A stretch of 52,520 bases of DNA from Pseudorhodobacter antarcticus. GTDB lineage: Bacteria; Pseudomonadota; Alphaproteobacteria; Rhodobacterales; Rhodobacteraceae. The stretch covers positions 1-52,520 of the forward strand of contig CAMBWO010000001.1 in the NCBI GenBank assembly GCA_945871285.1. Reading direction: 5' to 3'. Position numbers and translations under genes: made by a program. Below, piece by piece: positions 33,188 through 51,890 of this stretch (within the stretch, counting starts at the first letter, position 1; each line of letters starts with the position of its first letter). A model generated the notes under the pieces. The model saw nothing but the letters and a program-made list of their open reading frames with translations. It ran no database searches and was not told the origin of the DNA.

Positions 33188-33190
33188 GGC

Positions 33191-36319: not shown

Positions 36320-36369
36320 GATGGGGGTGTAACTCTCCGGTCATTCGAATGAATTACGGATCGGACAGC

Positions 36370-37119
36370 ATGGGCCGCGACAACTGGAAGATCATACGGG
36401 ACAAGATCTCGGCGAAAATCTCTGCCGGGGAACTTGAGCCCGGCGCACAACTGCCGACCGAGTCCCAACTGTGCCAGAGTTTTGCGACGGGCCGCCATTC
36501 GGTGCGGCGCGCGGTGGCGGCCCTGGCGGTCGAGGGCAAGCTGCGGGTCGAGCAGGGGCGCGGCACCTTTGTGCAGGCGGCCCCCTTGATCAGCTATCAA
36601 ATCGGGCGGCGCACCCGGTTTCGGCAAAACCTGCTGGAGCAGGGCATTGCCCCTGCGGGTGAGCAACTTGCCGACGCTGTCGTGCCGGCCTCGGCGCGGG
36701 TGGCGGCAGAGCTTGGCCTTGTCGAGGGCAGCCCGGTTCACCGCCTGTTGCGCCGCGGTCTGGCAGACGGGGTGCCGATCAGCATCGGGCTGTCCTGGCA
36801 CTGTGCCACCCGGTTTCCCGACCTTGCCGTGCAGCGCGCAGGCGGCGCGTCGGTCACAGATATCTACCGCAGCCACGGCATTGCGGACTATTTCCGCAAG
36901 CGCACCACGATCTTTGCGCGCCGACCCGACGACGAAGAGGCGCGGCTGCTCATGCAGCACCCCGATCAGCCGGTGTTGGTGCTGCAAAAGACCGATGTCG
37001 ACGCCGCGGGCCGGCCCCTTGGGTATTCCGAGGCGGTCTGGGCGGCGGACCGGGTGCAGTTTTCCTTTGACAGTCAGGATGAGGGCGATGGCGCCCCGGA
37101 AAGTACCGCCAATGTTTGA
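36370..37119 (+). CDS. phnF: PhnF, GntR/UTRA phosphonate regulator
   Basis: LPTESQL...RHSVRRAVAAL...EQGRGTFV HTH plus UTRA domain; start could be 36349. Confidence 0.92.
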   Translation: MGRDNWKIIRDKISAKISAGELEPGAQLPTESQLCQSFATGRHSVRRAVAALAVEGKLRVEQGRGTFVQAAPLISYQIGRRTRFRQNLLEQGIAPAGEQLADAVVPASARVAAELGLVEGSPVHRLLRRGLADGVPISIGLSWHCATRFPDLAVQRAGGASVTDIYRSHGIADYFRKRTTIFARRPDDEEARLLMQHPDQPVLVLQKTDVDAAGRPLGYSEAVWAADRVQFSFDSQDEGDGAPESTANV

Positions 37120-37555
37120 CCAAGGCTCTGATCCCGCCCAGCCCTTTGACCATGCGCGCCTGCTGGACGTGCTGGCCCGCGCCGATGCCGACCGTCTGGC
37201 CACGCTGGCCGAAGGCTTGCTGACAGCCTTAGGCCCGGTCGAGGTGGTGCAAAGCCGCACCGGTCTGGTCATGCTGCCGATGCGCGACACCGTGCAAGGC
37301 ACCGATTTTCATCTGGGCGAGGTGCTGGTGGCCGAGGCGCATATCCGGGCGGCGGGAACCGAAGGCTATGGCATGGTTGTGGGCCGCGACCTGAACCGTG
37401 CGATGGCGATGGCTGTGGTCGATGCAGCGGCCAGCCTTGGCCAAACGCCGCAGATCCGCGCCTTCCTGCACCACGAGGCGACCGCCCAAGCCGCCACCGA
37501 CACCGCCCGCCTGCGCGAGGTTGAGGCCACCCGCGTTGATATGGAGACGTTTTGA
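37112..37555 (+). CDS. phnG: PhnG C-P lyase complex subunit
   Basis: TGLVMLPMRD, FHLGEVLV, GYGMVVG and ATRVDMETF motifs; ATG 37112 overlaps phnF. Confidence 0.9.
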   Translation: MFDQGSDPAQPFDHARLLDVLARADADRLATLAEGLLTALGPVEVVQSRTGLVMLPMRDTVQGTDFHLGEVLVAEAHIRAAGTEGYGMVVGRDLNRAMAMAVVDAAASLGQTPQIRAFLHHEATAQAATDTARLREVEATRVDMETF

Positions 37556-38100
37556 TGTCCTTTCTGACCGCCGTTCCGCTGCCCGACGCCTTTGAAACGC
37601 GCACCAACGCCACGTTCGAGGCGCTGATGTGGGCCCTGTCCCGCCCCGGCACTGTGCAGGACTTGCCCGCCCCCGGCAGCGCGGGCATTGCCGAGGCGCT
37701 GCTGGACCGCGAATGCCGGGCGTTTTGCGACGATCCCGCCCTTGCGGACCGCATCGCCACCTTCGGCGCGGCGTTGGTGCCATTGCCCCTTGCTGATCAT
37801 TGCTTTCTTGCGCTGGACGCAGGCCTCGACCGGCTGGCGCAAATCGCGGTCGGCTCGGCGCTTTACCCTGACACAGGGGCCACAGTGGTGGCCCAGGCCC
37901 GGTTCGGCACGGGCCAGCGGTTGCGGCTGACCGGGCCAGGCATCGAAACCCTGGCCGAGATCGCGCTGGACGGGATTGCGCCCGGATTCTGGGCCTTGCG
38001 CGCAGCCCTGTGCCGCTATCCCGCCGGGTTTGATCTGTTTTTGACGTGCGGTGCCCAGGTGATCGGCCTGCCGCGTTCCACCACAATCGAGGTGCTCTGA
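37555..38100 (+). CDS. phnH: PhnH C-P lyase complex subunit
   Basis: FEALMWALSRPG, GSALYPDTGAT, LTGPGI, YPAGFD and GLPRST motifs; TGATG coupling. Confidence 0.9.
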   Translation: MSFLTAVPLPDAFETRTNATFEALMWALSRPGTVQDLPAPGSAGIAEALLDRECRAFCDDPALADRIATFGAALVPLPLADHCFLALDAGLDRLAQIAVGSALYPDTGATVVAQARFGTGQRLRLTGPGIETLAEIALDGIAPGFWALRAALCRYPAGFDLFLTCGAQVIGLPRSTTIEVL

Positions 38101-39164
38101 TGGCCTATGTTGCAACCCGCGGCGGCGAACGCGCCATTGAACAGTCCGAGCGTCTGTATCGTGCAGAACTGGGCCAGATCGACGCCGCCCGTGTGGCCGA
38201 AATTCGCCACGCGCTGCCGATGCTGATTGACCGCGTGATGGGGGAGGCTTCGCTCTATGAACCCGACCTTGCGGCCCTTGCCCTGGCACAGGCGGGGGGC
38301 GACCTGTATGAGGCGGTCTTGCTGCTTCGCGCCTGGCGCACCACCCAGCCGCGCCTGACGATTGCCCAGCCGGTGCTGCAAGACCAGCTTTTCACCCTTC
38401 GGCGGATCTCGGCGGCGTTCAAGGACATTCCGGGCGGACAGATCCTGGGACCAAGCCTCGACTATGCGCACCGCCTGCTGGCGACCGGGGTGTTGCAGGG
38501 GCGGCCCTATGTGCCCGCCGCCGTCCAGCCTGCCGCCACCCCGGCCCCCGCCCGGCAACCTTCGCTGGCCGCCTGGCAAAAGGCGCAGGGGCTGGTGGCT
38601 GACCCCGCCCGCGCCGATGTCGCCCCCGATGACATCCCCGACCTGACGCGCGAGCCGCTGCTGTTTCCCGCCGCACGTGCCCACACGCTGCAAAGCCTGG
38701 CGCGGGCCGATACCGGCGGGATGCTGGCCTTGGGCTATTCCGCGATGCGCGGCTATGGCAACGCCCACCCCACGGTCAACGAGTTGCGCCTCGCCGAGGC
38801 CGACGTCCGCGTGCGTCACCCCGGTGGCACGGTGTTTTCCGCCGGACGGGTCAAGGTCAGTCAGGCCGAGGTCACGTCAAAGGGCAAGTCGGGCCTGCTG
38901 GAGCTGGGCTTCTGCGCCACCCTGGGATGGAACGAGGTCAAGGTCATCTCGGGCGCCACGCTGGACCTGAACGCCCCCGGCGCCGCCAAGGGATCGCCGG
39001 TCGAAGAGGAGTTTTTCTTGTATCATACCGAACCGGTCGAGGCGTCCGGCTTTTGCATCCACTTCAAACTGCCGCATTACGTGACTTTTCAATCCTCGCT
39101 TGACGCCCTGCGCGGGGCCAAGGCCGTCCCTGCGCCCCATGAGCCCGAAAAGGTGCCCGCATGA
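38100..39164 (+). CDS. phnI: PhnI C-P lyase complex subunit
   Basis: MAYVATRGGE, RRISAAFKDIPGGQILG and HFKLPHYV motifs; TGATG coupling. Confidence 0.93.
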   Translation: MAYVATRGGERAIEQSERLYRAELGQIDAARVAEIRHALPMLIDRVMGEASLYEPDLAALALAQAGGDLYEAVLLLRAWRTTQPRLTIAQPVLQDQLFTLRRISAAFKDIPGGQILGPSLDYAHRLLATGVLQGRPYVPAAVQPAATPAPARQPSLAAWQKAQGLVADPARADVAPDDIPDLTREPLLFPAARAHTLQSLARADTGGMLALGYSAMRGYGNAHPTVNELRLAEADVRVRHPGGTVFSAGRVKVSQAEVTSKGKSGLLELGFCATLGWNEVKVISGATLDLNAPGAAKGSPVEEEFFLYHTEPVEASGFCIHFKLPHYVTFQSSLDALRGAKAVPAPHEPEKVPA

Positions 39165-40072
39165 CCATCGCCACCCTGACAAAACCGTGGGAAGCAATGT
39201 CCTACGGCTTCCTCGACGCCTCGGCCAAGCGCGAACTGCGGCGCAAGATGCTCAAGGCCATTGCCGTGCCGGGTTGCCAGATGCCCTATGCCAGCCGCGA
39301 AGTGCCAATGGCGCGGGGCTGGGGGACGGGTGGTTTGCAGGTGACGCTGACGCTGCTGCGGCCCAGTTCGGTGGTCAAGGTCATTGATCAAGGGGCCGAT
39401 GACAGCGTGAACGCGGCCTCGATCCGGTCGTTCCTCTCCAAGGTTTCGGGTGCACGGGAAACCTGGGATACCCTCGAGGCCACGATCCTGCAAAGCCGCC
39501 ACCGCATCCCCGAGGAACGGCTGCGCGCCGATCAGGTGCTGGTCTTGCAAGTGCCGAACCCCGAACCCCTGCGCCCGGTCGAACCCAACATGAGCGTCGC
39601 CCGCCAGATGCACGCCGATGCCGACTACGGGCGGCTGTGGCTGATCCTTTACGAACAGATCGTGCGGTCGGGCCGGGTCATGCAGGGGGCGGCCTATCCG
39701 TCACTGGTGAACGGGCGGCATGTGATGACGCCCTCACCCATCCCGCGCTGGGATGTGCCAAAGCTGCACATGGCGCAGCATTTGACCTTTCTGTCGGCCG
39801 GGCGCGAAAAGCGGCTGTACGCCGTCCCGCCCTTTACCAGGGTCGAACCTCTGGTCTTTTCCGACGTGCCCTTCCAGGTCGAGGATCATGCCGCGCTGAC
39901 CTGCCACCGCTCGGGGCTGACGGGCTATTTCATGAACGAGATCCCCCAGGGTGATGGCGGATCGCAGTTCGAACTGTCCGACAGCAACCTTGGCATCAAG
40001 GCGATCCGGCAGGCCGAAGGCGCCGACGCCCGCATCGGCCCCACCTGGTACGAAAACGGAAAGACATCATGA
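39161..40072 (+). CDS. phnJ: PhnJ homologue, atypical: lacks the CX2CX21C cluster motif and the catalytic Cys
   Basis: GWGTGG, KVIDQGADD, RHRIPE, PSPIP and AGREKR.YAVPPFT motifs are present; only two Cys in the protein (C39, C248). Confidence 0.92.
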   Translation: MTIATLTKPWEAMSYGFLDASAKRELRRKMLKAIAVPGCQMPYASREVPMARGWGTGGLQVTLTLLRPSSVVKVIDQGADDSVNAASIRSFLSKVSGARETWDTLEATILQSRHRIPEERLRADQVLVLQVPNPEPLRPVEPNMSVARQMHADADYGRLWLILYEQIVRSGRVMQGAAYPSLVNGRHVMTPSPIPRWDVPKLHMAQHLTFLSAGREKRLYAVPPFTRVEPLVFSDVPFQVEDHAALTCHRSGLTGYFMNEIPQGDGGSQFELSDSNLGIKAIRQAEGADARIGPTWYENGKTS

Positions 40073-40881
40073 CCCTCGCCCAACATTCCCTGGCCCTGCG
40101 TGCCCCGCAACTGATGACGACACCGCCCTTGCTGACCATGACCGGCGTCTCGCGCCGCTATGGCGACGTCGTGGCGCTCAGGGATGTGTCGGCCACCGTC
40201 TATCCCGGCGAGGTGCTGGGCATCGTCGGGGAAAGCGGCTCGGGCAAATCCACCCTGCTGCGGATGATGAACCTTGAGGATACGCCGGACGCAGGCGACT
40301 ACCGCCTGGCGCTGCCCGATCTGCCCGGAAACCTGTTCGATCTGGACCGCTTCGCACGGCGGATGCTGTGTGCCACGCGGATCGGCATCGTCTACCAGAA
40401 CCCGCACCTTGGCCTGTTGATGAAGCACACCTCCAGCGGGAACGTGGCCGAACGGTTGCTGATTGCAGGCGAGCGCAGCTTTGCCGCCCTGCGCGGCCGC
40501 GCGCGCGAGGCGCTGGACGCCTCGGAATTTCCGCTGGACCGGATGGACGCGCGACCGATCGAATTGTCAGGCGGGATGCAGCAGCGCGTGCAGCTGGCCA
40601 AGGCGATCGCGCTGGAGCCGGTGCTTTTGCTGCTGGACGAGCCGACCACCGGCCTTGACGTCTCCGTGCAGGCCCTGGTTCTGGATACGTTGAAGCGGTT
40701 GCAGCGTGACCGGGCCATCACCATGGTGATCGTCAGCCATGACCTTGGCGTGATCCGCACCATGGCTGACCGGGTGATGGTGATGCGGCGGGGCAGGGTG
40801 GTGGAACAGGGCCTGGCCGATCAGATCTTTCAAGACCCGCAGCACGACTATACCCAACAACTCGTCCATGCCAAACTGTGA
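40069..40881 (+). CDS. phnK: PhnK ABC-type ATPase subunit
   Basis: YPGEVLGIVGESGSGKST, GNVAERL, SGGMQQR and DEPTTGLDVSVQA motifs. Confidence 0.92.
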   Translation: MTLAQHSLALRAPQLMTTPPLLTMTGVSRRYGDVVALRDVSATVYPGEVLGIVGESGSGKSTLLRMMNLEDTPDAGDYRLALPDLPGNLFDLDRFARRMLCATRIGIVYQNPHLGLLMKHTSSGNVAERLLIAGERSFAALRGRAREALDASEFPLDRMDARPIELSGGMQQRVQLAKAIALEPVLLLLDEPTTGLDVSVQALVLDTLKRLQRDRAITMVIVSHDLGVIRTMADRVMVMRRGRVVEQGLADQIFQDPQHDYTQQLVHAKL

Positions 40882-41597
40882 GGCCCGCAATGACCCCCGT
40901 TCTTGAGGTCCAAGACCTCGCCAAACAGTTCCACATGCATCATCTGGACCAGGTGCTGCATGCCTTTGACGGCATCAGCTTCACCCTGCATGCGGGCGAA
41001 TTCCTGCTGCTGCGGGGCCCGAACGGGGTGGGCAAGTCCACCCTCTTGCGCACACTCTACCGCAGCTATCTGCCGCGCGCGGGGCATATCTGGTATCACA
41101 CGACCGAAGGCCGGATCGACCTTGCCACGGCGGCAGATGTGGACATTGCGCTGCTTCGCCGCCGCGAGATCGGGTTTGTGACGCAATTCCTGATCGCGCG
41201 GCCCCGGGTGGCGGCCGAGGATATCGTGTCCGAACCCCTGCGCCGCGCCGGAATGCCCGCGCCCGAGGCGCTGGACGAGGCCCGCCGCTGGCTGGCCGAG
41301 TTTGGCGTCAAGCGCGACCTTTGGCGGGCTTATCCCACGACCTTTTCGGGCGGCGAGCAGCAAAAGGTCAACCTGGCCCGCGCGCTGATCCTGCCGCAGC
41401 GGTTGCTGCTGCTGGATGAACCCACCGCCTCGCTGGATGCAGGTGCGCGGGCGGCATTGATCCGCAGGCTGGCCGATCTGAAGGCCGCAGGGGTGGCGAT
41501 GATCGGGGTATTCCATCACCCCGGCGATGTGGCGGGGCTGATCGACCGCGAAATTGAACTGACTGCGCAAGAGGTGTCCCAAGATGTGGCTGTCTGA
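40878..41597 (+). CDS. phnL: PhnL ABC-type ATPase subunit
   Basis: KQFHMH, GPNGVGKST, VTQFL, PTTFSGGEQQKVN and GVFH motifs; start GTG 40878 or ATG 40890. Confidence 0.92.
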   Translation: MRPAMTPVLEVQDLAKQFHMHHLDQVLHAFDGISFTLHAGEFLLLRGPNGVGKSTLLRTLYRSYLPRAGHIWYHTTEGRIDLATAADVDIALLRRREIGFVTQFLIARPRVAAEDIVSEPLRRAGMPAPEALDEARRWLAEFGVKRDLWRAYPTTFSGGEQQKVNLARALILPQRLLLLDEPTASLDAGARAALIRRLADLKAAGVAMIGVFHHPGDVAGLIDREIELTAQEVSQDVAV

Positions 41598-42753
41598 TTT
41601 CCGGGTGGTGACACCTGACTGTGTGCTGGAACGTGGGTCGGTCCGCGTTGAAGGGGGTCGCATCGTCGAGATTGCAGAAATCCCGATGCCCGGCGCGGCC
41701 CTTGCCGGCGATGGCCTGCTGCTGTTGCCCGGCTTTGTCGACATGCACGGCGACATGGTCGAACGTGAGGTCGAGCCGCGCCCCAATGTCCGCATGCCGA
41801 TGGAACTGGGTCTGCGCGACCTTGACCGACGGTTGGCGGCCTCTGGCGTGACCACGGCCTATGCGGCTGTCAGCTTTCATCCCGGATCGGCCTATGGCCA
41901 TATCCGCCATTTCGACCAGACCAGCGCCATCATCCGCGCCCTGAAATCGATGAATGATGTCCTGAAGGTCGACCACAAGGTTCACGCCCGGTTCGAGATC
42001 ACCTTCCCCGATGCCCTGCGCGTCGTGGAAGGGCTGATCGCCGAAGGCGCCGTCGATCTGGTGTCGCTGACCGATCACACCCCGGGGCAGGGGCAATACC
42101 GCGATATCGAGGCGCATGTGGCCCGCGTGGCCCGCGAAAAGGGCCTGAGCCAGACCGATGCCGAAAGCGAGGTCGCCCGGCGCATCGCCCAAAAGCACTC
42201 TGCCGCAGGCGACATGGCCGCCACGCTGCGCGCCATTTCCGCCACCTGCCGGGCGCATGGGGTGGCCTTGGCCAGCCATGACGATGACACGGCGCAAAAG
42301 GTCGCGCTGATGCAGGCGCTGGGGGCAGGGATCAGCGAATTTCCCGTCACCGTCGAGGCCGCAACCGAGGCCCGCACCCGCGGCCTTGCCACCGCGATGG
42401 GGGCACCAAATGCCCTGCGGGGCCAGTCCTACTCGGGCAACCTGTCCGCCCGCGCGGCGCATGAGCTGGGTCTGCTGGACATCCTCGCGTCAGACTATCA
42501 CCCCTCGGCGCTGCTGCCCGCCGTGCTGGAACTGGCCAAGGCCGACCCGCAGGGTCTGGCAGGCTCAACCCGTCTTGCCACGTTGAACCCGGCGCAGGCG
42601 CTTGGGCTGCGGGATCGGGGCGCCATCGCGCCGGGCCTGCTGGCCGATCTGGTGATTGCCGATGACAGCGGAATTGGCCATGTCCGCGCAACCCTGCGGG
42701 CGGGTGCCAAGATCTTCTCGGACGGCTCGATCTTTCTGGCGAGGGCGGCCTGA
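41584..42753 (+). CDS. phnM: PhnM alpha-D-ribose 1-methylphosphonate 5-triphosphate diphosphatase
   Basis: PGFVDMHGD, DHTPGQGQYR, ASHDD, SEFP, GAPNALRG and LASDY motifs. Confidence 0.92.
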   Translation: MWLSDFRVVTPDCVLERGSVRVEGGRIVEIAEIPMPGAALAGDGLLLLPGFVDMHGDMVEREVEPRPNVRMPMELGLRDLDRRLAASGVTTAYAAVSFHPGSAYGHIRHFDQTSAIIRALKSMNDVLKVDHKVHARFEITFPDALRVVEGLIAEGAVDLVSLTDHTPGQGQYRDIEAHVARVAREKGLSQTDAESEVARRIAQKHSAAGDMAATLRAISATCRAHGVALASHDDDTAQKVALMQALGAGISEFPVTVEAATEARTRGLATAMGAPNALRGQSYSGNLSARAAHELGLLDILASDYHPSALLPAVLELAKADPQGLAGSTRLATLNPAQALGLRDRGAIAPGLLADLVIADDSGIGHVRATLRAGAKIFSDGSIFLARAA

Positions 42754-42793: not shown

Positions 42794-43609
42794 CTATTCG
42801 ACCAGACCCAGACCCTGCAGATAGGCAAAGCCCTGCGGGATCTGCGTCTTGTCGTGCAGCTCCAACACCAGATGCGGCGCGGTTGCGCAATCGGCCAGGG
42901 CGCGAAACACCGCCGCCCACTCAACCTCGCCCTCTCCGGGGGCCCAATGGCGGTCGGCGTGGCCGTCCACGTCTTGCAGATGCACGTGGGCCAACTGCAC
43001 GCCGGCATCCCGCACGAAATAGTCGACCGGCGGCGCCCCCGACATCCGGCGCGCAAGCTGCGCATGGCCCGTGTCAATCGAAAGGGCGACGCAAGGGCTG
43101 GCAAAGCTGTCAACCAGGGCGCGGCGGGTGGCGGGGTCAACATCCTCGATATTTTCGATCACGATGGTGATCCCGGTGTCTTCGGCGCGTTTGACCACCG
43201 GCCCAAGGACCGTATGAATGCGCGCCAGCTTCGCCTCGGCATATCCGGGCGATGCCAGCCGGTTGTTCTGATACCAGGCCCGATAGGGAGAGTGCAGCAC
43301 CATCTGCCGCGCGCCGATCGCTTCGGCAGCCTCTAGCGCGCGCAAAAACCGCGCCGTGATCAGGGGCCGCAGGTCCGCATCCTTGTTGTCGATATCAAGC
43401 CCCGCATAGGGGCCATGAATCCCGACGCGGCCCCCGTGACCGGCAAGCGCCACTTTGGCGGCAGCGATCCGATCCTGGCGTTCCGCGCCAAGGGCGGCGT
43501 GGGTCATGAAGTCCTGCAATTCGATGTCGCGCTGCGCGTCGAACAGCCAGGCGCGATGGTCGAAAATTTCGCAGGCGCGAAGACAGGCACCGATCTTGAG
43601 GGGGGGCAT
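42794..43609 (-). CDS. Xylose-isomerase-like / AP endonuclease 2 TIM-barrel metalloenzyme
   Basis: IHGPY, LHSP, IENI, DTGH, HVHLQD, DRHWAPGEG and LEL motifs; AAGGAG RBS before ATG 43609. Confidence 0.85.
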   Translation of the reverse strand: MPPLKIGACLRACEIFDHRAWLFDAQRDIELQDFMTHAALGAERQDRIAAAKVALAGHGGRVGIHGPYAGLDIDNKDADLRPLITARFLRALEAAEAIGARQMVLHSPYRAWYQNNRLASPGYAEAKLARIHTVLGPVVKRAEDTGITIVIENIEDVDPATRRALVDSFASPCVALSIDTGHAQLARRMSGAPPVDYFVRDAGVQLAHVHLQDVDGHADRHWAPGEGEVEWAAVFRALADCATAPHLVLELHDKTQIPQGFAYLQGLGLVE

Positions 43610-43635
43610 CGGGAAACTCCTTGGCTTGATACGCA

Positions 43636-44850
43636 TTAGCCCGCCGCAATCGCACCATAGGCGGCGCGGCCGGTGACAAGGGTCTGGCGGACGACCGGGG
43701 TGCGACCTGCGGGCCAGTCCAGCAACACCAGATCGGCCCGCCGACCGACCGCGATCTCGCCCCGGTCCGCAAGGCCAAGCGCGGCCGCCGGATTGGCCGA
43801 GACCAGCTTCCACAGATCAGGCAGGCGACCTATCCCATCCTCTTGCAAGCGCGCCACGGCGGTCAGCATGGCGGGGTAGTAATAGTCCGAGGCCAGAATG
43901 TCGCACAGGCCCGCCGCCACCATGTCTGCCGCCCCGGGCGAGCCGAGGTGGCTGCCCCCGCGCGCGGCATTCGGGGCGCCGAACACGATCCAGTCGCCCG
44001 CCTCACGTGCGCAGCGGGTCACCGTCCTGTTCATCGGAAACTCGGATATCCGGGCACCATGACCCCGGTAATAGGCGCGGGTCTCGGGCTGGCTGTCGTC
44101 ATGGCTAAGCATCGGCGCACCCGCCGCCGCCGCCCTTTGTCCCGCCGCGGCGATCATTGCCGGCACCTCCGGCCGCCGCTGCCACATCTGCCGCATCAGG
44201 GCGACGAAATCGGCCACATCCATGCCAGAACGTTTTGCGCGGCCTTCCATCTTGGCGGCAAAGCCGGGGCTATCCATGTCCACCACCGGAAAGTCGGGAT
44301 CAAAATCAGAGGGTCGGTCCTGCAACGGAACCGACGGATCAAGGACCCCCATCGTCGTATGATCGTTGTAGGCCAGGGCGGGCAACAAGGGCCCGGCAAG
44401 GGCGGCCTCGATCAGCGGCAGCGCCTCGAAACAAAAGGTTTCCCAGCGCAGTTGCACGCGGTTTTCCACCGTCAGACGCGGGGCAAGGGCGGCCAGCGTC
44501 GCGATCACCTCCTGCCCGATGGCGACCGAACGCAGGCCCGGCTCCCAGCTGAGCGTCAGGGCGTGATAGGCCGTTGCAATGCCATTGGCCGCCAACTGCC
44601 GGTCGGTTTCCAAAAGCGCCGCCTCGGTCGAAATCATCACGCCGGGGCGCGGCATCAGCTGGCGTTCAAAGGCATCGCCGTGGATGTCGACCAGCGCCGG
44701 GGCAAGGATCATGCCGCGGCCGTCGATCACCCGCGCACCGTCCTTTGGGCCGTCCAGGGCGGCAATCACGCCGCCTGCGACGCGCACGGACACCCGCGCC
44801 ATCCGGTCAGGCAGGACGACCGACGCGCCTTCAATCACAAAGGGGTCCAT
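43636..44850 (-). CDS. phnM: Second, divergent PhnM-like amidohydrolase
   Basis: PALVDIHGDAFERQLMPRP, NDH, SHDD, SEFP, GAPNAARG and LASDYY motifs; lacks the DHTPGQ.Q loop of the first copy. Confidence 0.85.
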   Translation of the reverse strand: MDPFVIEGASVVLPDRMARVSVRVAGGVIAALDGPKDGARVIDGRGMILAPALVDIHGDAFERQLMPRPGVMISTEAALLETDRQLAANGIATAYHALTLSWEPGLRSVAIGQEVIATLAALAPRLTVENRVQLRWETFCFEALPLIEAALAGPLLPALAYNDHTTMGVLDPSVPLQDRPSDFDPDFPVVDMDSPGFAAKMEGRAKRSGMDVADFVALMRQMWQRRPEVPAMIAAAGQRAAAAGAPMLSHDDSQPETRAYYRGHGARISEFPMNRTVTRCAREAGDWIVFGAPNAARGGSHLGSPGAADMVAAGLCDILASDYYYPAMLTAVARLQEDGIGRLPDLWKLVSANPAAALGLADRGEIAVGRRADLVLLDWPAGRTPVVRQTLVTGRAAYGAIAAG

Positions 44851-45506
44851 CACAGCCGCTCCAGCACCAGATGCCAATGCCACGAGCCTGGCGTTTCGTG
44901 TTCACGGTCCTCCAGTCGGCAGACCTCAAACGCCGCGAACAGCTCAAGCAGATCGCGCCCGTTGCAAAAATAGTGCGGGTGCACCTTGTCGCCCGGCCCC
45001 TCGAACACCCAGGTGTTGCGCGAAATCTCGCGGCCAGGGGCCTTGGCGCATTCACTCGGCACCCGGCGGGCGGAAAGCATGGTGCCAAGGAACGTGCCAC
45101 CGGGTTTCAGCACGCGGGCGATTTCAGCGATGGTCGCCCGCAGCACCTCCTCGTCGCCGTGATAGATCACGTTCCACGACAGCACATGGTCAAAGGCCGC
45201 ATCGGCAAAGGGGAGGGCGGTCATGAAACCGGTGCGGGCGTCCACCGTCAGGCCCTCGGTCGCGGCGATGCGGGTGATCTCGACGATGCCTTCGGGGGCG
45301 GCATCAAGGGCCGTCACCGCAAAGCCCCGCCGGGCCAGCGCCAGCGCATGGCGCCCGACGCCCGCGCCCAGATCCAGGATGGCGGCACCGGCAGGCAGGG
45401 TTTGCGCAAAGGCCATCACGTCGGCCTCGGGCTGCTCCCATTTCGAGGTGCCGTCCACCTGCGCCCATTCCGTTGCCCAATAGTGATGCGCTGTCTCTGT
45501 CTTCAT
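44850..45506 (-). CDS. Class I SAM-dependent methyltransferase
   Basis: ILDLGAGVGRH, ALPFADAAFD and RVLKPGG motifs; overlaps both neighbours. Confidence 0.9.
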   Translation of the reverse strand: MKTETAHHYWATEWAQVDGTSKWEQPEADVMAFAQTLPAGAAILDLGAGVGRHALALARRGFAVTALDAAPEGIVEITRIAATEGLTVDARTGFMTALPFADAAFDHVLSWNVIYHGDEEVLRATIAEIARVLKPGGTFLGTMLSARRVPSECAKAPGREISRNTWVFEGPGDKVHPHYFCNGRDLLELFAAFEVCRLEDREHETPGSWHWHLVLERL

Positions 45507-46309
45507 CTGCCCGGTCCCATGATCTTCTGACGCAACACTGCGCCGATTTGTTCCACGCCGATCACCACGACCGCGATCATCAGGATCACGGTCACGGCGG
45601 TCGGATAATCGAAAAGGTCAAAGCCGACCTTCAGTTCAATCCCGATCCCGCCTGCCCCGACCAGACCCAGGATGGTCGAGGCGCGAACCGCCTTTTCCAA
45701 CGCAAATAGCCCGGTGGACACAAAGGCCGGAAGGGCTGCGGGAATAACCGCACTTGCGGCAATGTCGATGCGCCTGGCGCCGGTGGCGGTCAGGGCCTCG
45801 GCCGGGCCGGGGTCGGTGTTTTCCATGTCATCGGCAAAGAAGCGGCCGCAAAACCCGATGGTGTCAATGGCAATGGCCAGCATCCCCGCAAAGGGGCCAA
45901 GGCCGACCGCCACCACAAAGACCAGCGCCCAGGCGAGGTCTGGCACGGCCCGAAGGAAGCCCAGAATGATGCGCACGACCAGATTGACGCCGCGCCCCAC
46001 CAGCACGCCGCGCGCCGCCAAAAGTGCGATCGGCAGCGACAGCACAATGCCGATGGCCGCGCCCGAGACGGCGATCTGCAAGGTTTCCACCATCTTCCAC
46101 GCCAGCCGGTCCAGATTGTGGGTCGAGGGTGGCCAGGCGCGGGAAAAGAAATCAGCCAGCTTTGGCGGCGAGGACAGCAGCCGGTCCACCGACCAGCCCG
46201 CACCCTCCAGCGACCACAGGATGACAAGCGCCACCAGGACGTAACTGACAAAACCGATGCCGCCCGGCCGGTTGAAGCGATGCGGAACTGCGCGCGCCGG
46301 GCTATCCAT
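45503..46309 (-). CDS. phnE: PhnE/PtxC-type ABC permease
   Basis: ETLQIA, RAVPDL, GLGPFAG and VRASTILGLVGAGGIG motifs. Confidence 0.88.
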   Translation of the reverse strand: MDSPARAVPHRFNRPGGIGFVSYVLVALVILWSLEGAGWSVDRLLSSPPKLADFFSRAWPPSTHNLDRLAWKMVETLQIAVSGAAIGIVLSLPIALLAARGVLVGRGVNLVVRIILGFLRAVPDLAWALVFVVAVGLGPFAGMLAIAIDTIGFCGRFFADDMENTDPGPAEALTATGARRIDIAASAVIPAALPAFVSTGLFALEKAVRASTILGLVGAGGIGIELKVGFDLFDYPTAVTVILMIAVVVIGVEQIGAVLRQKIMGPGR

Positions 46310-47096
46310 AAAGCTTGGCCATTTCCAACGGGGTGACATCGGCCGAGCGCGCGTCGATGGCGATGCGGCCCCCCTGCAACCCCAGAATCCGGTCGCCATA
46401 GCTGAGGGCGTGCTGCACGTTGTGCGAGGTGAACAAAACCGTCACCCCTTCGCGTTTCACAAGCGACATGAAAAGCGCCATGACCTCTTCCCCCGCCTGC
46501 GGGTCGAGCGAGGCACAGGGCTCATCGGCCACCAGGAATCGCGGGCTGCACACCAGCGCGCGGGCAATCGCCACGCGCTGGCTTTGCCCACCCGACAGCT
46601 GATCGGCCCGGCGCAGCGCCAGATCGGCCAGCCCGACCTTTTCCAGCGCGGCCATGGCCGCAGCCCGCGCCTCGGCGGGGGCAAGGCCCTGGATCCAATA
46701 GCGCGGCCCGGAATGCCGCCCCAAAAGCCCATGAATGACATTGGACAACACCGACAGGCGCGGCACCAGATTGTGCTTTTGCCCCACCAGCCCGGTCCGG
46801 GCGCGCAACTCGCGCCGCGCCGTGCCGCCCAGATCGGCCAACGTCACGCCCAGCAAGGAAACCCGGCCGGCGTCGGGCGCAATCAGGCCAAGACAGCAGC
46901 GCAGCAGGGTGGATTTGCCAGTGCCATTGGCCCCGACCAGCGCGACACACTCGCCCCGCCGGATGCTGAAATCGAGACCGGAAAACACGGGCGCCGCCGT
47001 GCCAAACCGCTTGGAAAGGCTGTTGGCCTGCAGGTCGATCACCTGCTGGCCAACGCCGGTTGCCTTGTGCCGCATCGGCGGGCGGTCAAGTGGCAC
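46302..47096 (-). CDS. phnC: PhnC/PtxA-type ABC ATPase
   Basis: GANGTGKST, NLVPRLSVLSNV, LSGGQSQRV and DEPCASLDP motifs; start may be 47075. Confidence 0.88.
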   Translation of the reverse strand: MPLDRPPMRHKATGVGQQVIDLQANSLSKRFGTAAPVFSGLDFSIRRGECVALVGANGTGKSTLLRCCLGLIAPDAGRVSLLGVTLADLGGTARRELRARTGLVGQKHNLVPRLSVLSNVIHGLLGRHSGPRYWIQGLAPAEARAAAMAALEKVGLADLALRRADQLSGGQSQRVAIARALVCSPRFLVADEPCASLDPQAGEEVMALFMSLVKREGVTVLFTSHNVQHALSYGDRILGLQGGRIAIDARSADVTPLEMAKLYG

Positions 47097-47099
47097 CTG

Positions 47100-47972
47100 T
47101 CATTCCCCAAGGAACTTGTCGAACTGGGGATAACCTGCCGTGGTGTACATGGACCGGACGATGTCATAGGCCGCATCCTCGATCGTCACGAGGTCCATGC
47201 CGATGTACTTGTCGTTTTCCTCGTGCTGGGTGATGCCGGCGATGATCTGGGCCTTGTTGGCGATGATGCTGTCACGAACCAGCGCCTGAACGGCGGCCGG
47301 CACGTGGGCCCCGGCCAGCAGCATGTCGTTGGGCAGATCGCCCGACCGCGCCAGCACCTTGAAATAGCCATAAGGAACCGAGGTGTCCTTGCTGCGGGCC
47401 GAGGAGATCCAGCTGCCTTCGTTGATGCCGATGGCCGCAACGTCGCCCGCCTTCAACGCCTCGTGCGCGATGTTCGAGGCCGTGTGCACCTTGTCGATGT
47501 CGTTGACCGGATCGACGCCATAATCGGCCATCAACTGCATCGGGCACAACATGTTCGAGGTCGACCCGATGTCGCCGAAGGCAACCTTCTTGCCCTTCAG
47601 GTCGTCCATGCTGTCGATGCCCGCGTCGGCGCGCACGACGATCGCGCAGCGATAATCGGGGCGGCCAAAACCGATCAGCGGGGTCGCCTTGGTCAGGGTG
47701 TTGATGATGATGTATTCGGCCGGGCCGGTGATCACGAAATCAATCGTCTCCCCGCGCAGGGCTTCGGCGGAGGCGGTCCGCGACGAGACCGGAAAAAAGT
47801 CGAAGGTTTCCCCTGTCGCGGCCTCAAGGGCCGCCTTGAACGGACCCCATTCCGCCTGCAAACGCTCCAGTCCCTCGACGTCCGTGACGGCGATGCTCCA
47901 GGTTTCTGCGGTGGCGGCGGTTGCGCCGAGGACGGCCAGGGCCGTTCCAAACATCATGGTCTTCAGCGACAT
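47100..47972 (-). CDS. PhnD/PtxB-like phosphate/phosphite/phosphonate binding protein (divergent)
   Basis: Signal peptide from ATG 47972 (GGAGAG RBS); DLKGKKVAFGD.GSTS, LPND and AYDIVR motifs. Confidence 0.85.
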   Translation of the reverse strand: MSLKTMMFGTALAVLGATAATAETWSIAVTDVEGLERLQAEWGPFKAALEAATGETFDFFPVSSRTASAEALRGETIDFVITGPAEYIIINTLTKATPLIGFGRPDYRCAIVVRADAGIDSMDDLKGKKVAFGDIGSTSNMLCPMQLMADYGVDPVNDIDKVHTASNIAHEALKAGDVAAIGINEGSWISSARSKDTSVPYGYFKVLARSGDLPNDMLLAGAHVPAAVQALVRDSIIANKAQIIAGITQHEENDKYIGMDLVTIEDAAYDIVRSMYTTAGYPQFDKFLGE

Positions 47973-48066
47973 GGCAAGCTCTCCGTTTGCTATTGATTGG
48001 CACGATTGGCTAAGGCCCGCCCGTGACGCCCCGGCGACGTGCGTGTAAACTTTTTCAAAAATAGCC

Positions 48067-48084
48067 ATGACATGTTTACGACAC
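48067..48084 (-). promoter_or_regulatory. Putative Pho box for the minus-strand phnD operon
   Basis: Minus strand reads GTGTCGT-aaac-ATGTCAT. Confidence 0.55.
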
Positions 48085-48224
48085 CCAGGGCCTCTGACGG
48101 CCATGTGGTGCGGCGCACGCGAAAGCGCCCGACGTCATGCCCGGTGCAAGGCCGTGCCGGGCCCACCGCCGCCCCGCCTGTCGGTCCATCCCGCGGATCG
48201 GAAATCAAGAAGGTCCGCAAGCGC

Positions 48225-48242: not shown

Positions 48243-48308
48243 GAATTGGTTTCCAAATATTCATCCGGATGACGCTGGCCTGTTGCGTGCCGCTGGCAAA
48301 TGGTCGGC

Positions 48309-49124
48309 ATGGAAAAGCACATGCTCTCTCTTGCTGGCCTTGGCCGCACCTTCGGCTCAACCCGCGCGGTTGATGCCGTAACACTGAATATCCGCTCCGG
48401 CGAGTTTGTCGGGGTGATTGGTCGATCTGGCGCAGGCAAATCCACGCTGCTGCGTCTGATCAACCGCCTGATCGACCCCACCTCTGGCCGGATCACGTTT
48501 GGCGATACCGATATCACGGCGCTGCGCGGACGCGACCTGCGGCAATGGCGACGCGACTGCGCCATGATCTTTCAGCAGTTCAATCTGGTGGAACGGTTGG
48601 ACGTTCTGACCAACGTGCTGGTGGGCCGTCTTGCCGATCACGGATTTCTGTCCTCGATGGCGATGCGCTTTTCCGATGCCGAACGCACGATTGCCATTCG
48701 CGCCCTGGACCGTCTGGACCTGGCCCCGCAGGCGTTGCAGCGCGCAGGCACCCTGTCGGGCGGTCAGCAGCAGCGCGTGGCCATCGCCCGGGCGCTGGTG
48801 CAAAACCCCCGCATCATGCTGGCGGATGAGCCCATCGCCAGTCTTGACCCCGGCAACGCCACCCGCGTCATGGAAGCCTTGCGCAGCATCAACCGCGATG
48901 ACGGCATCACCATTCTGGTCAATCTGCACACCCTGGACACCGCGCGCGCCTATTGCCACCGCATCATCGCCATGCGCGACGGCCGGGTGCTGTTTGACGG
49001 CACGCCGCGCCAGCTGACCGACGATGTCGTGCGCGACATCTATGGCAGCGAGGGCCTGACCGAGTTCAACGAAGCGGTGACCTCGACCGCCGCCCACCCC
49101 AATCGCCTCCGCGAGACCGCCTGA
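48309..49124 (+). CDS. phnC: PhnC phosphonate ABC ATPase
   Basis: [39 protein letters not shown] and NLHTLD motifs; exact start uncertain (48300-48321). Confidence 0.92.
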
Positions 49125-49157
49125 TCCCCTTCACCCCCTGAACCTTGGAGCTTTCTG

Positions 49158-50060
49158 ATGCGCCTTTTTGCAACCACCGCCCTCGTCGCCCTGACCGCCC
49201 TTCCGGCAATCGCCCAAGACTGGAAGGCCGATTACCGCATCGTCCGTTTCGGCATCCTGTCGGGCGAGAACGAATCCGACCGCGTCGCCCGCTACACTCC
49301 GTTTCAGGAATATCTGGAAAAGACGCTGGGCGTTGAGGTCGAGATTTTCACCGCCGGAAACTATGACGGCGTGATCCAGGCGCTGGCCGCCGGACAGATC
49401 GAGTTTTCCTTTCTCGGCTCGTCCGCCTATGCCGCCGCCTATACCGAAACCGACGGCGGCGTCGTCCCGTTGCTGACCTCGGTTCAGGACGACGATTCGA
49501 CCGGATATTATTCTGTGATCGTGGTGCGCTGTGATTCCGGCCTGAAGACCATCGACGATCTGAAGGGCAAGACCCTTGCCTTCGCCGACCCCGACAGCAC
49601 CTCGGGCTACAACGTCCCCTACTACAACCTGGTCCAGCAAGGCTATCAGCCCGAGGAATTCTTTGCGGCCATCCCGTTCTCAGGCAGCCACGAAGCCGGG
49701 GTTGCAGGTGTGGTCAACGGCCAGTTCGAGGCCGCCGCGACCTATATCAACAACGAAAAGAGCGGCATCCCGCAGCGAATGGTGACCAAGGGCATGATCA
49801 AGGAAGGCGAGGCCTGCGTGATCTGGACCAGCCCGGAAATCACCTCGGGCCCCTTCACCGCACGCGCCAACCTTCCGCAAGGTCTGATCGACGAGATGAC
49901 GGCGGCTGTCCTCGCCACGCCCACCGCCGCGCCCGAGGCCTTCAAGGAAATGTCCGGGGCGGACGACTCGACCGCAAAGGGCTATGTCGCGGTGAATCAC
50001 GACCGTTATCAGTGGATTGTCGACATGCGCGCCTGGTTCAAGGCAAACCGCAAGGGCTGA
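49158..50060 (+). CDS. phnD: PhnD phosphonate ABC substrate-binding protein
   Basis: Signal peptide; NYDGVIQ, GYYS, ADPDSTSGY and FSGSHE motifs. Confidence 0.92.
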   Translation: MRLFATTALVALTALPAIAQDWKADYRIVRFGILSGENESDRVARYTPFQEYLEKTLGVEVEIFTAGNYDGVIQALAAGQIEFSFLGSSAYAAAYTETDGGVVPLLTSVQDDDSTGYYSVIVVRCDSGLKTIDDLKGKTLAFADPDSTSGYNVPYYNLVQQGYQPEEFFAAIPFSGSHEAGVAGVVNGQFEAAATYINNEKSGIPQRMVTKGMIKEGEACVIWTSPEITSGPFTARANLPQGLIDEMTAAVLATPTAAPEAFKEMSGADDSTAKGYVAVNHDRYQWIVDMRAWFKANRKG

Positions 50061-50079
50061 TCCTTGATCCAACGCGATA

Positions 50080-50104
50080 AGGGCGGGCCAACTTGGCCCG
50101 CCCT
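50080..50104 (+). terminator. Stem-loop after phnD (mRNA stabiliser)
   Basis: AGGGCGGGCCA-act-TGGCCCGCCCT, an 11-bp stem. Confidence 0.55.
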
Positions 50105-50124
50105 GGCCCAGCCGGGAATACCAG

Positions 50125-51027
50125 ATGTCCACAGCCATCCTTGCCTTTGAACGCGATTACGCCGTCCAACGCCGTCATGCCCGCCTGACCTTTGCCGCCG
50201 TGACGGGGGTGATGGTCGTGCTGTTCTTGCTGACGGCAGAGGCGTCGAACTTCTTCAAGATCACACAAGTCACCCTGGCCGACGGAACCCGCGCCGAGCG
50301 TTGGGTGATCGGTGCCGGCCTGCCGCGCCTTGGCGAATACATCACCAAGACAATCCCGCAGTTGCGCTGGGCGACCCTGGGCCACGACCTCGCCGTCTGG
50401 TTCTCACGTTGGGAAGTCTGGGCGCAACTGCTGTTGGAAACCGTGCTGATTGCCTTCATGGCGACGGTCTTGGGTGTGATCGGCGGGTTCATCCTGTCGT
50501 TTCCCGCCGCGCGCAACCTTGCACCCAACCGCTGGATATTCTGGCTGTGCCGTCGCTACCTTGAAATCGCCCGCACGGTGCCAGAGCTGATCTTTGCGCT
50601 GATCTTTGTCTTCTGCTTTGGCGTCGGACCGCTGGCCGGGGTGCTGGCCATTGGGCTGCATACGGCAGGCTCGCTGGGCAAGCTGTATTCCGAGGCCAAT
50701 GAAAACATCGACATGCGACCACTGGACGGGGTCAAGGCGGCCGGTGGGTCATGGTTTGACATGGTCCGCTATGGGGCCGTGCCGCAGGTGCTGCCCAATG
50801 TCCTCAGCTATACCCTGCTGCGCTTCGAAATCAACGTGCGGGCATCGTCCATCATCGGCTATGTCGGCGCGGGTGGGCTGGGCCAAGAGTTCCGCACCGC
50901 CATGTCCTATCAGGACTACACCGATCTTTCGGCCTTGTTCGTCATCATTCTGGTGACTGTGACGGTGATCGACCGTCTGTCCGAAATGCTGCGCCACCGC
51001 GTCATCGGATTGGAGGAACGGGCATGA
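50125..51027 (+). CDS. phnE: PhnE phosphonate ABC permease 1
   Basis: RTVPEL, GKLYSEANE and RFEINVRASSIIG.VGAGG motifs. Confidence 0.92.
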   Translation: MSTAILAFERDYAVQRRHARLTFAAVTGVMVVLFLLTAEASNFFKITQVTLADGTRAERWVIGAGLPRLGEYITKTIPQLRWATLGHDLAVWFSRWEVWAQLLLETVLIAFMATVLGVIGGFILSFPAARNLAPNRWIFWLCRRYLEIARTVPELIFALIFVFCFGVGPLAGVLAIGLHTAGSLGKLYSEANENIDMRPLDGVKAAGGSWFDMVRYGAVPQVLPNVLSYTLLRFEINVRASSIIGYVGAGGLGQEFRTAMSYQDYTDLSALFVIILVTVTVIDRLSEMLRHRVIGLEERA

Positions 51028-51890
51028 CACCTCACATCGTCACCACAACTGAAATCGCCTTGGCCCGCGCGGCCCACCCCCTGGCCTTTCGGGCCCCCCT
51101 GTCCGTGCGTGTGCGCCGGGCCGCCGTCCTGACCGGCCTGGTGCTGCTGTTTTGCTGGTGCCTTTACGATTTCAATTTCTCGCCCGCCCGCATCTGGGAA
51201 GGGCTGGGCCGCCTCGGCCGGGTGCTGTCCTTCATGTTTCCGCCGCATATCTGGACCGAATGGCGCGAATTCGCCGAGATCCTGAAAGGTCTGGGCGAAA
51301 CCCTGTCGATGGCCTTTCTGGGCACGCTGCTTGGCGCGATCATTGCCTTTCCGCTGTCGTTTCTGGGGGCCCGGAACATCAACCGCCTGCCCATCTTTCG
51401 CTTTGCGGTGCGGCGCGGGTTCGACTTTATCCGCGCCTTTGAAACCTTGATCCTTGCGCTGATCTTCATCCGCGCGTTCGGCCTTGGGCCGCTGGCCGGG
51501 GTGCTGGCCATCGCAGTCGGTGAAATCGGCGTCCTGGCCAAGCTTTATGCCGAGGCGATCGAGAACACGTCCAACAAACCGGTGGACGGCGTGGTCGCAT
51601 CCGGTGGCAGCCGCACCCAATCCATCCGCTTTGCGGTGATGCCGCAGGTCGTGCCGGTCTTGTTGTCGATCACGCTTTACAACTTCGAATCCAATGTCCG
51701 CTCCGGAACCATTCTGGGCATCGTCGGTGCGGGGGGCATTGGCTTCCTGCTGGCCGACCGGATCGGCGCCTACCGCTGGGACGAAGCCTGGTCGATCATC
51801 TTCCTGATCATCGCGATGGTCTATCTGATCGACTGGCTCTCTGGCCGGGTTCGCGCGCGTTTCATCGGAACATGGGAGGGAACCAGATAA
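51024..51890 (+). CDS. phnE: PhnE phosphonate ABC permease 2
   Basis: GLGPLAG, KLYAEAIE and FESNVRSGTILGIVGAGGIG motifs. Confidence 0.92.
   Translation: MTPHIVTTTEIALARAAHPLAFRAPLSVRVRRAAVLTGLVLLFCWCLYDFNFSPARIWEGLGRLGRVLSFMFPPHIWTEWREFAEILKGLGETLSMAFLGTLLGAIIAFPLSFLGARNINRLPIFRFAVRRGFDFIRAFETLILALIFIRAFGLGPLAGVLAIAVGEIGVLAKLYAEAIENTSNKPVDGVVASGGSRTQSIRFAVMPQVVPVLLSITLYNFESNVRSGTILGIVGAGGIGFLLADRIGAYRWDEAWSIIFLIIAMVYLIDWLSGRVRARFIGTWEGTR

What the first reader, a model, noticed from the sequence alone, without database searches (positions are those of the whole stretch)
39161..40072. Full-length PhnJ that has lost its radical-SAM cluster ligands and catalytic cysteine
Seen: the C-terminus reads TCHRSGLTGYFMNEIPQGDGGSQFELSDSNLG and the whole protein has only two Cys. 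Established: E. coli PhnJ (recalled as PCAICGSTHSYLDEVVLDDAGNRMFVCSDTDYC) binds [4Fe-4S] through Cys241/244/266 and uses Gly32 and Cys272 for radical C-P cleavage. By-eye alignment gives C241=C248 (kept), C244->S251, C266->L272 and C272->G278. The flanking residues still align, so this is not a frameshift, and the rest of the protein (Gly38=Gly32, His114=His108, GWGTGG, DQGADD) is well conserved. Inference: this PhnJ cannot do canonical radical-SAM chemistry yet appears maintained. It may be a non-radical variant acting on a ribosyl-1-phospho-X intermediate with a better leaving group (P-O, P-N, P-S or P-H), or a scaffold that needs an external radical source.
Basis: partly seen in the sequence, partly recalled or inferred. 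Interest (0 to 1): 0.92.

Follow-up and report, generated by a model that had tools for sequence, protein, structure and literature searches.

The report
C-P lyase lineage without iron-sulfur cysteines
This intact phosphorus-scavenging operon encodes a PhnJ subunit from a large, conserved lineage that lacks the cysteines the textbook radical mechanism needs, so it likely frees phosphate by non-radical chemistry from a substrate not yet identified, and it offers a natural test of how C-P lyase works.

Summary
Confirmed. PhnJ (39161-40072) has two Cys and keeps one of the four cluster/thiyl positions. It is not decay: all 320 non-identical clade sequences collected lack C244/C266/C272, 18 have no Cys at all and 5 also lose Gly32. 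dN/dS is 0.09-0.21, and PhnG, H, I, K, L and M form the same separate lineage (Alphaproteobacteria, Chloroflexota, Deinococcota, hot-spring Synechococcus). The Zn/His product site and both ATPases are intact. It is the only PhnJ in 13 of 15 PhnJ-bearing Deinococcota genomes, and a radical-SAM neighbour occurs in 1 of 56 loci. New here: 29 of 56 variant loci carry unrelated phosphodiesterases (0 of 68 four-Cys loci), while PhnP/DUF1045 and PhnN are depleted. Best reading (0.5): non-radical ribosylate-then-cleave P-X scavenging. Main rival (0.35): still an alkane-releasing lyase with unknown chemistry, because a hot-spring cyanobacterium with this PhnJ (strain link recalled) is reported to use phosphonates and release methane; I saw only secondary citations. 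No paper describing the clade in 10 searches. This scan found it before on other DNA (at least 8 findings).

The parts
39161..40072 (+). phnJ, cysteine-depleted lineage, 303 aa
39902..39994 (+). Former four-Cys site: C248 (39902-39904) kept; S251, L272, G278 replace E. coli C244, C266, C272
39272..39274 (+). Gly38 = E. coli Gly32 (kept here; Ala in 5 of 320 clade sequences)
39497..39502 (+). Arg113-His114 = E. coli Arg107-His108, contacts of the cyclic-phosphate ligand at the Zn/His site
   Evidence: 320 of 320
36349..37119 (+). phnF regulator
   Evidence: TIGR02325 above cut-off
37112..37555 (+). phnG
   Evidence: TIGR03293 above cut-off
37552..38100 (+). phnH
   Evidence: TIGR03292 above cut-off
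38100..39164 (+). phnI; Zn ligands H223, H321, H326 = E. coli H219, H328, H333
40069..40881 (+). phnK ATPase; K60, Q110, D190, E191, H224 kept
   Evidence: (best hit TIGR02323, below cut-off)
40878..41597 (+). phnL ATPase; K53, D180, E181, H213 kept
   Evidence: (best hit TIGR02324, below cut-off)
41584..42753 (+). phnM triphosphate diphosphatase
   Evidence: TIGR02318 and NF011988 above cut-off
42794..43633 (-). Endonuclease-IV-like (TTHB071-type) TIM barrel, predicted metal phosphodiesterase; a neighbour typical of this lineage
   Evidence: PF01261, PDB 3AYT E=6e-15, 14-19 of 56 variant loci vs 0 of 68
43636..44883 (-). second PhnM-like protein
   Evidence: NF011987 above cut-off
44850..45506 (-). 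class I SAM-dependent methyltransferase, substrate unknown
   Evidence: homologue
45503..48104 (-). second phnD-C-E transporter with an unusual binding protein (Arg at E. coli Y47; H157 not aligned)
48067..48084 (-). Pho-box-like direct repeat (3 mismatches to a recalled consensus) upstream of the second phnD
   Evidence: weak on its own
48300..51890 (+). phnC-D-E-E transporter of the type that follows phnM in related loci; PhnD keeps Y47/S127/T128/S129/H157 and has Gly at E. coli D205

Best explanation
This is a complete, conserved second lineage of the phnGHIJKLM machine whose PhnJ lacks the iron-sulfur and thiyl cysteines, and it likely recovers phosphate under P starvation by non-radical cleavage of a ribosylated P-X substrate. 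Steps: (1) PhnCDE imports an X-PO3 compound (inferred from kept oxygen-binding residues). (2) PhnGHIL swaps the base of ATP for it and PhnM trims the triphosphate (inferred from E. coli; residues shown kept). (3) At the PhnI/PhnJ Zn-His site the ribose 2'-OH would attack phosphorus and expel X as an ordinary leaving group (P-O, P-N, P-S, P-H or an activated carbon), giving the 1,2-cyclic phosphate; or PhnJ only completes the ribosylation site and the recruited phosphodiesterase makes the cut (inferred). (4) An EndoIV-, YfcE-, SpdA- or YmdB-type phosphodiesterase would replace PhnP/DUF1045 (co-occurrence shown, activity inferred). The C-terminal domain is predicted to fold without metal. Plain alkylphosphonates would be poor substrates.
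For: No Cys triad in 320 of 320; no Cys at all in 18; Gly32->Ala in 5. All residues that PMC9947105 names at the Zn/His ligand site are kept: R107, H108, Q124, G47, W48, G49, T50 in 320 of 320, PhnI H219/H328/H333 in at least 90% of 35. That paper models cyclic PRcP at this site in enzyme expressed without phosphonate, 30 A from the cluster-Gly32 relay. Purifying selection, including the C-terminal domain. Whole operon is one lineage. Kept beside a second, ~45-50% identical PhnJ in 9 of 11 carriers in the host family vs 113 of 240 others, suggesting a different job. Downstream enzymes differ: alternative phosphodiesterases 29 of 56 vs 0 of 68; PhnP/DUF1045 4 of 56 vs 32 of 68; PhnN 6 of 56 vs 29 of 68. 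Pho-box-like repeats before phnF in 9 of 18 loci vs 2.25% background. No travelling activase (1 of 56).
Against: A clade member (P0129, ABD01166.1; strain link recalled) belongs to a cyanobacterium cited as growing on phosphonates and releasing methane and as using phosphonates in the dark unlike its operon-less relative. Gly32 is kept in 315 of 320. The TIGR03308 acetyltransferase typical of phosphonate operons is kept (33 of 56 vs 28 of 68). PhnD pockets resemble those beside four-Cys operons and give no substrate. The same paper thinks the His site may serve the first step, so its conservation does not prove cyclisation. Four loci still have DUF1045. No new catalytic residue could be placed in 3D. 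Phosphatases would be a cheaper route for simple esters (own knowledge).
Confidence: 0.5

Rival explanations
1. It is still an alkane-releasing C-P lyase, using a radical or redox source other than a PhnJ-bound [4Fe-4S]/SAM/Cys272 relay, for example a redox metal at the His site; the four-Cys site would then be a dispensable structural metal site, like zinc-free paralogues of zinc-ribbon proteins (analogy recalled).
For: Secondary reports of phosphonate growth and methane release for the hot-spring Synechococcus; one phn cluster listed for it and single Cys-less matches in 4 of 4 PhnJ-bearing genomes of that genus. Sole PhnJ in 13 of 15 Deinococcota. The loss recurs: P0510 nests among four-Cys PhnJ-K fusions; L112 keeps three Cys. 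The E. coli mechanism is called unresolved, with 30 A between cluster and Gly32. Substitutions (S/T, L/V/I) look like fold-preserving ones and the domain models well.
Against: No known cofactor-free way to break an unactivated C-P bond (own knowledge). Gly32 and every Cys are dispensable in some members. Primary papers not seen; as recalled, there was no knockout, growth followed a weeks-long lag, and the operon-less strain also grew on phosphonates. Four-Cys PhnJ occurs in 12 of 13 other Chloroflexota loci checked, the usual mat companions (recalled), so a contaminant is possible. Co-retention with a second PhnJ and changed downstream enzymes fit a different substrate.
Confidence: 0.35
2. It is a radical lyase activated from outside by a host radical-SAM enzyme or by a four-Cys PhnJ in mixed complexes.
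For: 9 of 11 carriers in the host family, including this genome, have a second PhnJ; Gly32 mostly kept.
Against: Single PhnJ in 5 of 5 non-proteobacterial carrier genomes and 13 Deinococcota; radical-SAM neighbour in 1 of 56 loci; subunits only 35-48% identical to the genome's other operon; no thiyl Cys to relay to; Gly32->Ala in some.
Confidence: 0.06
3. It is specialised for phosphite, hydrolysing the P-H bond of ribosyl-phosphite with loss of H2 (a special case of the best explanation, listed apart).
For: C-P lyase and Zn alkaline phosphatases oxidise phosphite (PMC12704751); many carriers are from hot springs.
Against: PhnD has Gly/Ser/Thr where PtxB has Tyr (role of that Tyr recalled); no PtxD or HtxA among the 176 neighbours scanned (the one dehydrogenase checked is phosphoglycerate-dehydrogenase-like).
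Confidence: 0.06
4. Decaying gene or sequencing artefact.
For: The genome is an 89% complete assembly and holds a four-Cys copy that could make this one redundant.
Against: 320 sequences over at least four phyla share the loss; dN/dS 0.09-0.21; open frames; intact operons.
Confidence: 0.01

Closest known systems
E. coli PhnJ in Phn(GHIJ)2K2L2 (PDB 4XB6, 7Z15-7Z19; EC 4.7.1.1)
   Same: 49% identity, same fold (Foldseek TM 0.75/0.82), gene order G-H-I-J-K-L-M, Gly32, Zn/His site, ATPase and PhnM residues.
   Different: C244, C266, C272 and D252 replaced; 20-residue C-terminal tail added; clade-specific residues (H207, T209, E271, K280 in PhnJ); mostly no PhnP/DUF1045/PhnN nearby, other phosphodiesterases instead.
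phn operons of hot-spring Synechococcus (ABD01166.1) and Thermus thermophilus HB8 plasmid pVV8 (NC_017767.1)
   Same: Members of the same cysteine-depleted clade; annotated as ordinary PhnJ.
   Different: Deep branch, 60-63% identity; shorter tail; the loss of cysteines was not remarked in any passage I read.
T. thermophilus TTHB071 (PDB 3AYT/3AYV) and CbiR
   Same: Closest solved relative and weak family hit of the neighbouring TIM-barrel gene.
   Different: Not known to act in a phn pathway; link to this operon is by co-occurrence only.
Polar P-X cleaving Zn enzymes (PhoA phosphite oxidation; PhnA phosphonoacetate hydrolase, recalled)
   Same: Model for metal-assisted two-electron cleavage of P-H or activated P-C bonds.
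   Different: Unrelated fold; no ribosylation, no ATP use.

Membership tests
PhnJ family (PF06007) | Profile score above the curated cut-off | tested here: met
   381.5 bits vs 25
PhnJ family (PF06007) | PhnJ fold and place in phnGHIJKLM | tested here: met
Radical-SAM C-P lyase, E. coli type (EC 4.7.1.1) | Cys241/244/266 cluster ligands | tested here: not met
   one of three here; none in 18 of 320
Radical-SAM C-P lyase, E. coli type (EC 4.7.1.1) | Cys272 thiyl residue | tested here: not met
   Gly278; 0 of 320 have Cys
Radical-SAM C-P lyase, E. coli type (EC 4.7.1.1) | Gly32 | tested here: met
   Gly38; 315 of 320 in the clade
Radical-SAM C-P lyase, E. coli type (EC 4.7.1.1) | Zn/His site (PhnI H328, H333, H219; PhnJ R107, H108, Q124, loop 47-50) | tested here: met
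Radical-SAM C-P lyase, E. coli type (EC 4.7.1.1) | Fe-S binding, SAM cleavage, alkane release | not testable with these tools
   only secondary citations for one clade member
Glycyl-radical enzyme with separate activase | Co-inherited radical-SAM activase | tested here: not met
   1 of 56 loci, opposite strand
Phosphite systems (ptx/htx) | Aromatic cap residue in the binding protein (role recalled) | tested here: not met
   Gly/Ser/Thr in operon-linked PhnD
Phosphite systems (ptx/htx) | Adjacent ptxD or htxA | tested here: not met
   none among 176 scanned neighbours, a subset of all
Zinc-free paralogues of zinc-site proteins (analogy, recalled) | Same activity as the Cys form; metal-responsive control | not tested
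   only the substitution pattern and the model fit

The most novel reading that the evidence does not exclude
This lineage breaks unactivated C-P bonds and releases methane or ethane with no iron-sulfur cluster, SAM, thiyl or glycyl radical in PhnJ: an oxygen-tolerant C-P lyase chemistry at the Zn/His site, which would mean the four-Cys site is not the general radical source of C-P lyase.
Probability: 0.33. Interest if true: 0.95.

Novelty: new variant of a known kind. Interest (0 to 1): 0.78.

Why it matters
The C-P lyase mechanism is described as unresolved: the cluster lies 30 A from Gly32 and the product binds at a separate Zn/His site (PMC9947105). This lineage is a natural deletion of the radical half with the Zn/His half intact, in culturable hosts (T. 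thermophilus HB8 pVV8, hot-spring Synechococcus, Devosia, Paracoccus). Either outcome is informative: no alkane means a new non-radical phosphorus-scavenging pathway and a class of phnJ hits that should not count as methane potential; alkane release means new C-P chemistry. Databases name these proteins as ordinary PhnJ, and a survey that removes sequences lacking catalytic residues (PMC9381506) could drop them unseen.

Tried and rejected
Frameshift/decay: rejected. Cys39 as replacement thiyl: Cys in only 154 of 320, Tyr/His/Phe in the rest. Cys248 as essential ligand: Asp or Ser in 18. Fusion to a radical domain: the 120 listed of 214 long forms are 48-57% identical and 119 carry a precomputed ABC (PhnK-like) domain, none a radical-SAM domain; weak evidence. 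Substrate from PhnD: uninformative, six label changes on its tree and Gly cap also beside four-Cys operons. PtxD candidate in L106: not PtxD-like. Expression: no RNA holder listed, no evidence either way. Ochrobactrum BTU2 lead (P0044): the paper read mentions only BTU1. Arsenic or methylation roles: methyltransferase homologue in 2 of 31 loci, ArsP-like in 2; not pursued. Accession search in papers found nothing relevant. Primary papers (Adams 2008, Gomez-Garcia 2011, Seweryn 2015, Kamat 2011, Metcalf 1991, Yang 2004) are not held. The careful tree did not finish; quick and FastTree trees were used. The all-pairs dN/dS part crashed; only window-versus-eight values are reported. No complex prediction was run. 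No model coordinates were available, so clade-specific residues were not placed.

Full report
Observation. The ORF at 39161-40072 (+) gives a 303-aa protein with two cysteines, C39 and C248. It scores 381.5 bits on PF06007 and matches E. coli PhnJ in 4XB6 at E=3e-81. With E. coli K-12 genes fetched from NC_000913.3, the multiple alignments place C248, S251, L272 and G278 at E. coli C241, C244, C266 and C272; a pairwise alignment shifts C248 to C244, which does not change the count of one in four. PMC11978286 (passages) and PMC9947105 (passages and Discussion) give these four Cys and Gly32 as the cluster, zinc and radical residues.

Context. The gene sits in phnF-G-H-I-J-K-L-M (36349-42753), followed on the other strand by a phnD-C-E set, a methyltransferase, a second phnM and a TIM-barrel gene, then by phnC-D-E-E. 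The genome (89% complete) has a second operon on contig C4 with a four-Cys PhnJ; its subunits are 35-48% identical to the window's and DUF1045, PhnN and the hexapeptide acetyltransferase were found on that contig.

A real lineage. The query and its best 120 hits all share S251 and G278 and lack Cys at 272 (121 of 121). Pooling non-identical sequences of at least 270 aa gave 375: 55 CCCC, 302 Cxxx, 18 xxxx, no other pattern. This pool was gathered by likeness to two clade queries and is not a census. The 18 xxxx class matches 18 proteins with no Cys anywhere; 5 hot-spring Synechococcus sequences have Ala at Gly32. The clade is one side of a branch with all columns (99, quick tree of 107 rows) and without the C-terminal domain (97, FastTree, 390 rows); PhnG, H, I, K, L and M from the same loci split the same way (94-100). 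dN/dS of the window gene against eight relatives is 0.09-0.21 (dS 0.8-1.3, partly saturated); the former cluster domain has pN 0.05-0.17 against pS 0.42-0.64. AlphaFold2 gives mean pLDDT 82.6, 91-94 over residues 241-290, under 50 at 13-18 and 30-49, and Foldseek returns E. coli PhnJ (TM 0.75/0.82, rmsd 6.0).

Distribution. Named members include Hoeflea, Devosia, Paracoccus, Sinorhizobium, Mesorhizobium, Anaerolineae, Deinococcus, Thermus (plasmid pVV8) and hot-spring Synechococcus. In the host's family 124 of 251 genomes have PhnJ; 11 have a match of at least 77% (Cys loss checked in 9), and 9 of these 11 also have a 45-50% match (four Cys checked in 2), against 113 of the other 240 (Fisher p=0.03, kin not independent). 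In Deinococcota 15 of 201 genomes have one PhnJ each, 13 of them Cys-less. In Chloroflexota 20 of 301 have PhnJ: 6 clade members, 12 four-Cys, 1 three-Cys, 1 split and not fetched. Five of five non-proteobacterial carriers tested have no second PhnJ. P0510, one of 116 intact PhnJ-K fusions examined, shows the same loss but nests among four-Cys fusions (98): probably an independent loss, on one sequence.

What is kept. PMC9947105 models the cyclic product PRcP at a Zn site made by PhnI H328/H333, with contacts to PhnJ R107, H108, Q124 and loop 47-50, H219 joining in the open state; the ligand formed without phosphonate in the medium, and the cluster site is 30 A from Gly32. Those PhnJ residues are kept in 320 of 320, the PhnI histidines in at least 90% of 35 and in the window, as are the PhnK, PhnL and PhnM catalytic residues. 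The authors note that the site may serve the first, ribosylating step, so its conservation is needed for, but does not prove, cyclisation.

What travels with it. Over 56 clade loci and 68 four-Cys loci (47 and 56 of them at least 15 kb; L128 dropped as a duplicate, L112 as three-Cys, L001-L002 and L087-L090 as short or duplicate): radical-SAM gene 1 vs 0 by one query plus a CxxxCxxC scan of clade loci; TTHB071-type TIM barrel 19 vs 0 (14 vs 0 with the window protein alone as query); YfcE-type 7 vs 0; SpdA-like 5 vs 0; YmdB-type 1 vs 0; GDPD 2 vs 0; any of these 29 vs 0; PhnP or DUF1045 4 vs 32; PhnN 6 vs 29; TIGR03308 acetyltransferase 33 vs 28 (family names). The queries for the alternative enzymes came from clade loci, which favours that side, and related loci are not independent. 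DUF1045 and above-cut-off PhnN were found in 2 of 2 sole-copy alphaproteobacterial genomes but in 0 of 3 others. Pho-box-like repeats (consensus recalled) lie before phnF in 9 of 18 loci against 2.25% of random stretches, but not before the window's phnF at that threshold. Operon-linked PhnD keeps the oxygen-binding residues and has Gly, Ser or Thr at E. coli D205, as do many four-Cys loci; PtxB has Tyr there.

Phenotype. P0129 carries accession ABD01166.1 on a 3,046,682-bp replicon and is Cys-less at 244/266/272, with a second Cys five residues after the first. From memory this is Synechococcus JA-2-3B'a(2-13) (OS-B'); the strain name was cut off in the output. PMC5955973 (passages, one supplement row) says the strain has a full phn cluster, grows on phosphonates and is among cyanobacteria releasing methane, and lists one 8-kb cluster; PMC9600594 (passages) says OS-A lacks the operon and, unlike OS-B', cannot grow on phosphonates in the dark; PMC11358556 (passage) mentions a Pho box at its 5' end. 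Four of 12 genomes of that genus have PhnJ, one match each, all in the clade. I could not read the primary papers. As recalled from their abstracts, growth on methylphosphonate came only after long exposure and OS-A also grew on phosphonates; I recall no knockout. This is the strongest point against my reading and it is unverified.

Mechanism. Shown: no cysteine triad, no thiyl Cys, intact Zn/His site and ATPases, selection, changed downstream enzymes. Inferred: import and ribosylation as in E. coli, then two-electron loss of X from phosphorus by the 2'-OH at the Zn site or by the recruited phosphodiesterase. I give this 0.5, an alkane-releasing lyase with unknown chemistry 0.35, outside activation 0.06, phosphite specialist 0.06, decay 0.01. 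The substrate is not identified.

Novelty. It is a PhnJ family member but fails two defining tests of the E. coli-type radical-SAM lyase. Ten full-text searches (listings seen) and passages of PMC12704751, PMC10574752, PMC6852614, PMC9426474, PMC9381506 and PMC11356716 showed no description of the clade. Most subscription papers and reviews are outside the library, and only 12 of 51 supplement files of PMC9381506 were searched, so a published remark may exist. The scan itself has noted this lineage in at least 8 other windows; my clade, sole-copy and Synechococcus results were obtained before or apart from those notes, and the phosphodiesterase swap is not in the lines shown. Verdict: new variant of a known kind, interest 0.78.

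Noticed in passing
window 47100-48104 (-): Second PhnD of an unusual type (Arg at E. coli Y47, Glu at S68, H157 not aligned); close relatives in 4 of 31 clade loci and 0 of 54 four-Cys loci, with a second PhnM and sometimes a methyltransferase. Ligand unknown.
   Followed up: partly
P0510: PhnJ-PhnK fusion among mostly actinobacterial fusions with C-x-x-T, T and M at the four-Cys site; probably an independent loss.
   Followed up: partly
P0422: Fragment with the Cys-less pattern, about 55% identical to both clade and four-Cys proteins; deep member or further loss.
   Followed up: no
L112:6574-7467 (-): Chloroflexota PhnJ with three Cys; C244 is missing and a His lies four residues after C241.
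   Followed up: no
L096:9963-11711 (-): Carbohydrate phosphorylase-family gene (PF00343) lies between phnI and phnJ inside a clade operon.
   Followed up: no
L011:862-13596 and L085: A four-Cys operon and a Cys-less operon lie side by side in L011; the Haematobacter plasmid of L085 also has two phnJ places.
   Followed up: no
L102:8695-9138: A GNAT acetyltransferase follows phnM in two clade loci (L102, L103) that lack TIGR03308, hinting that the two may be functional analogues.
   Followed up: no
window 32495-36095 (-): TetR-like regulator, RND-type adaptor, ABC permease and ATPase just upstream of phnF (read from the translations only); unrelated to the finding.
   Followed up: no
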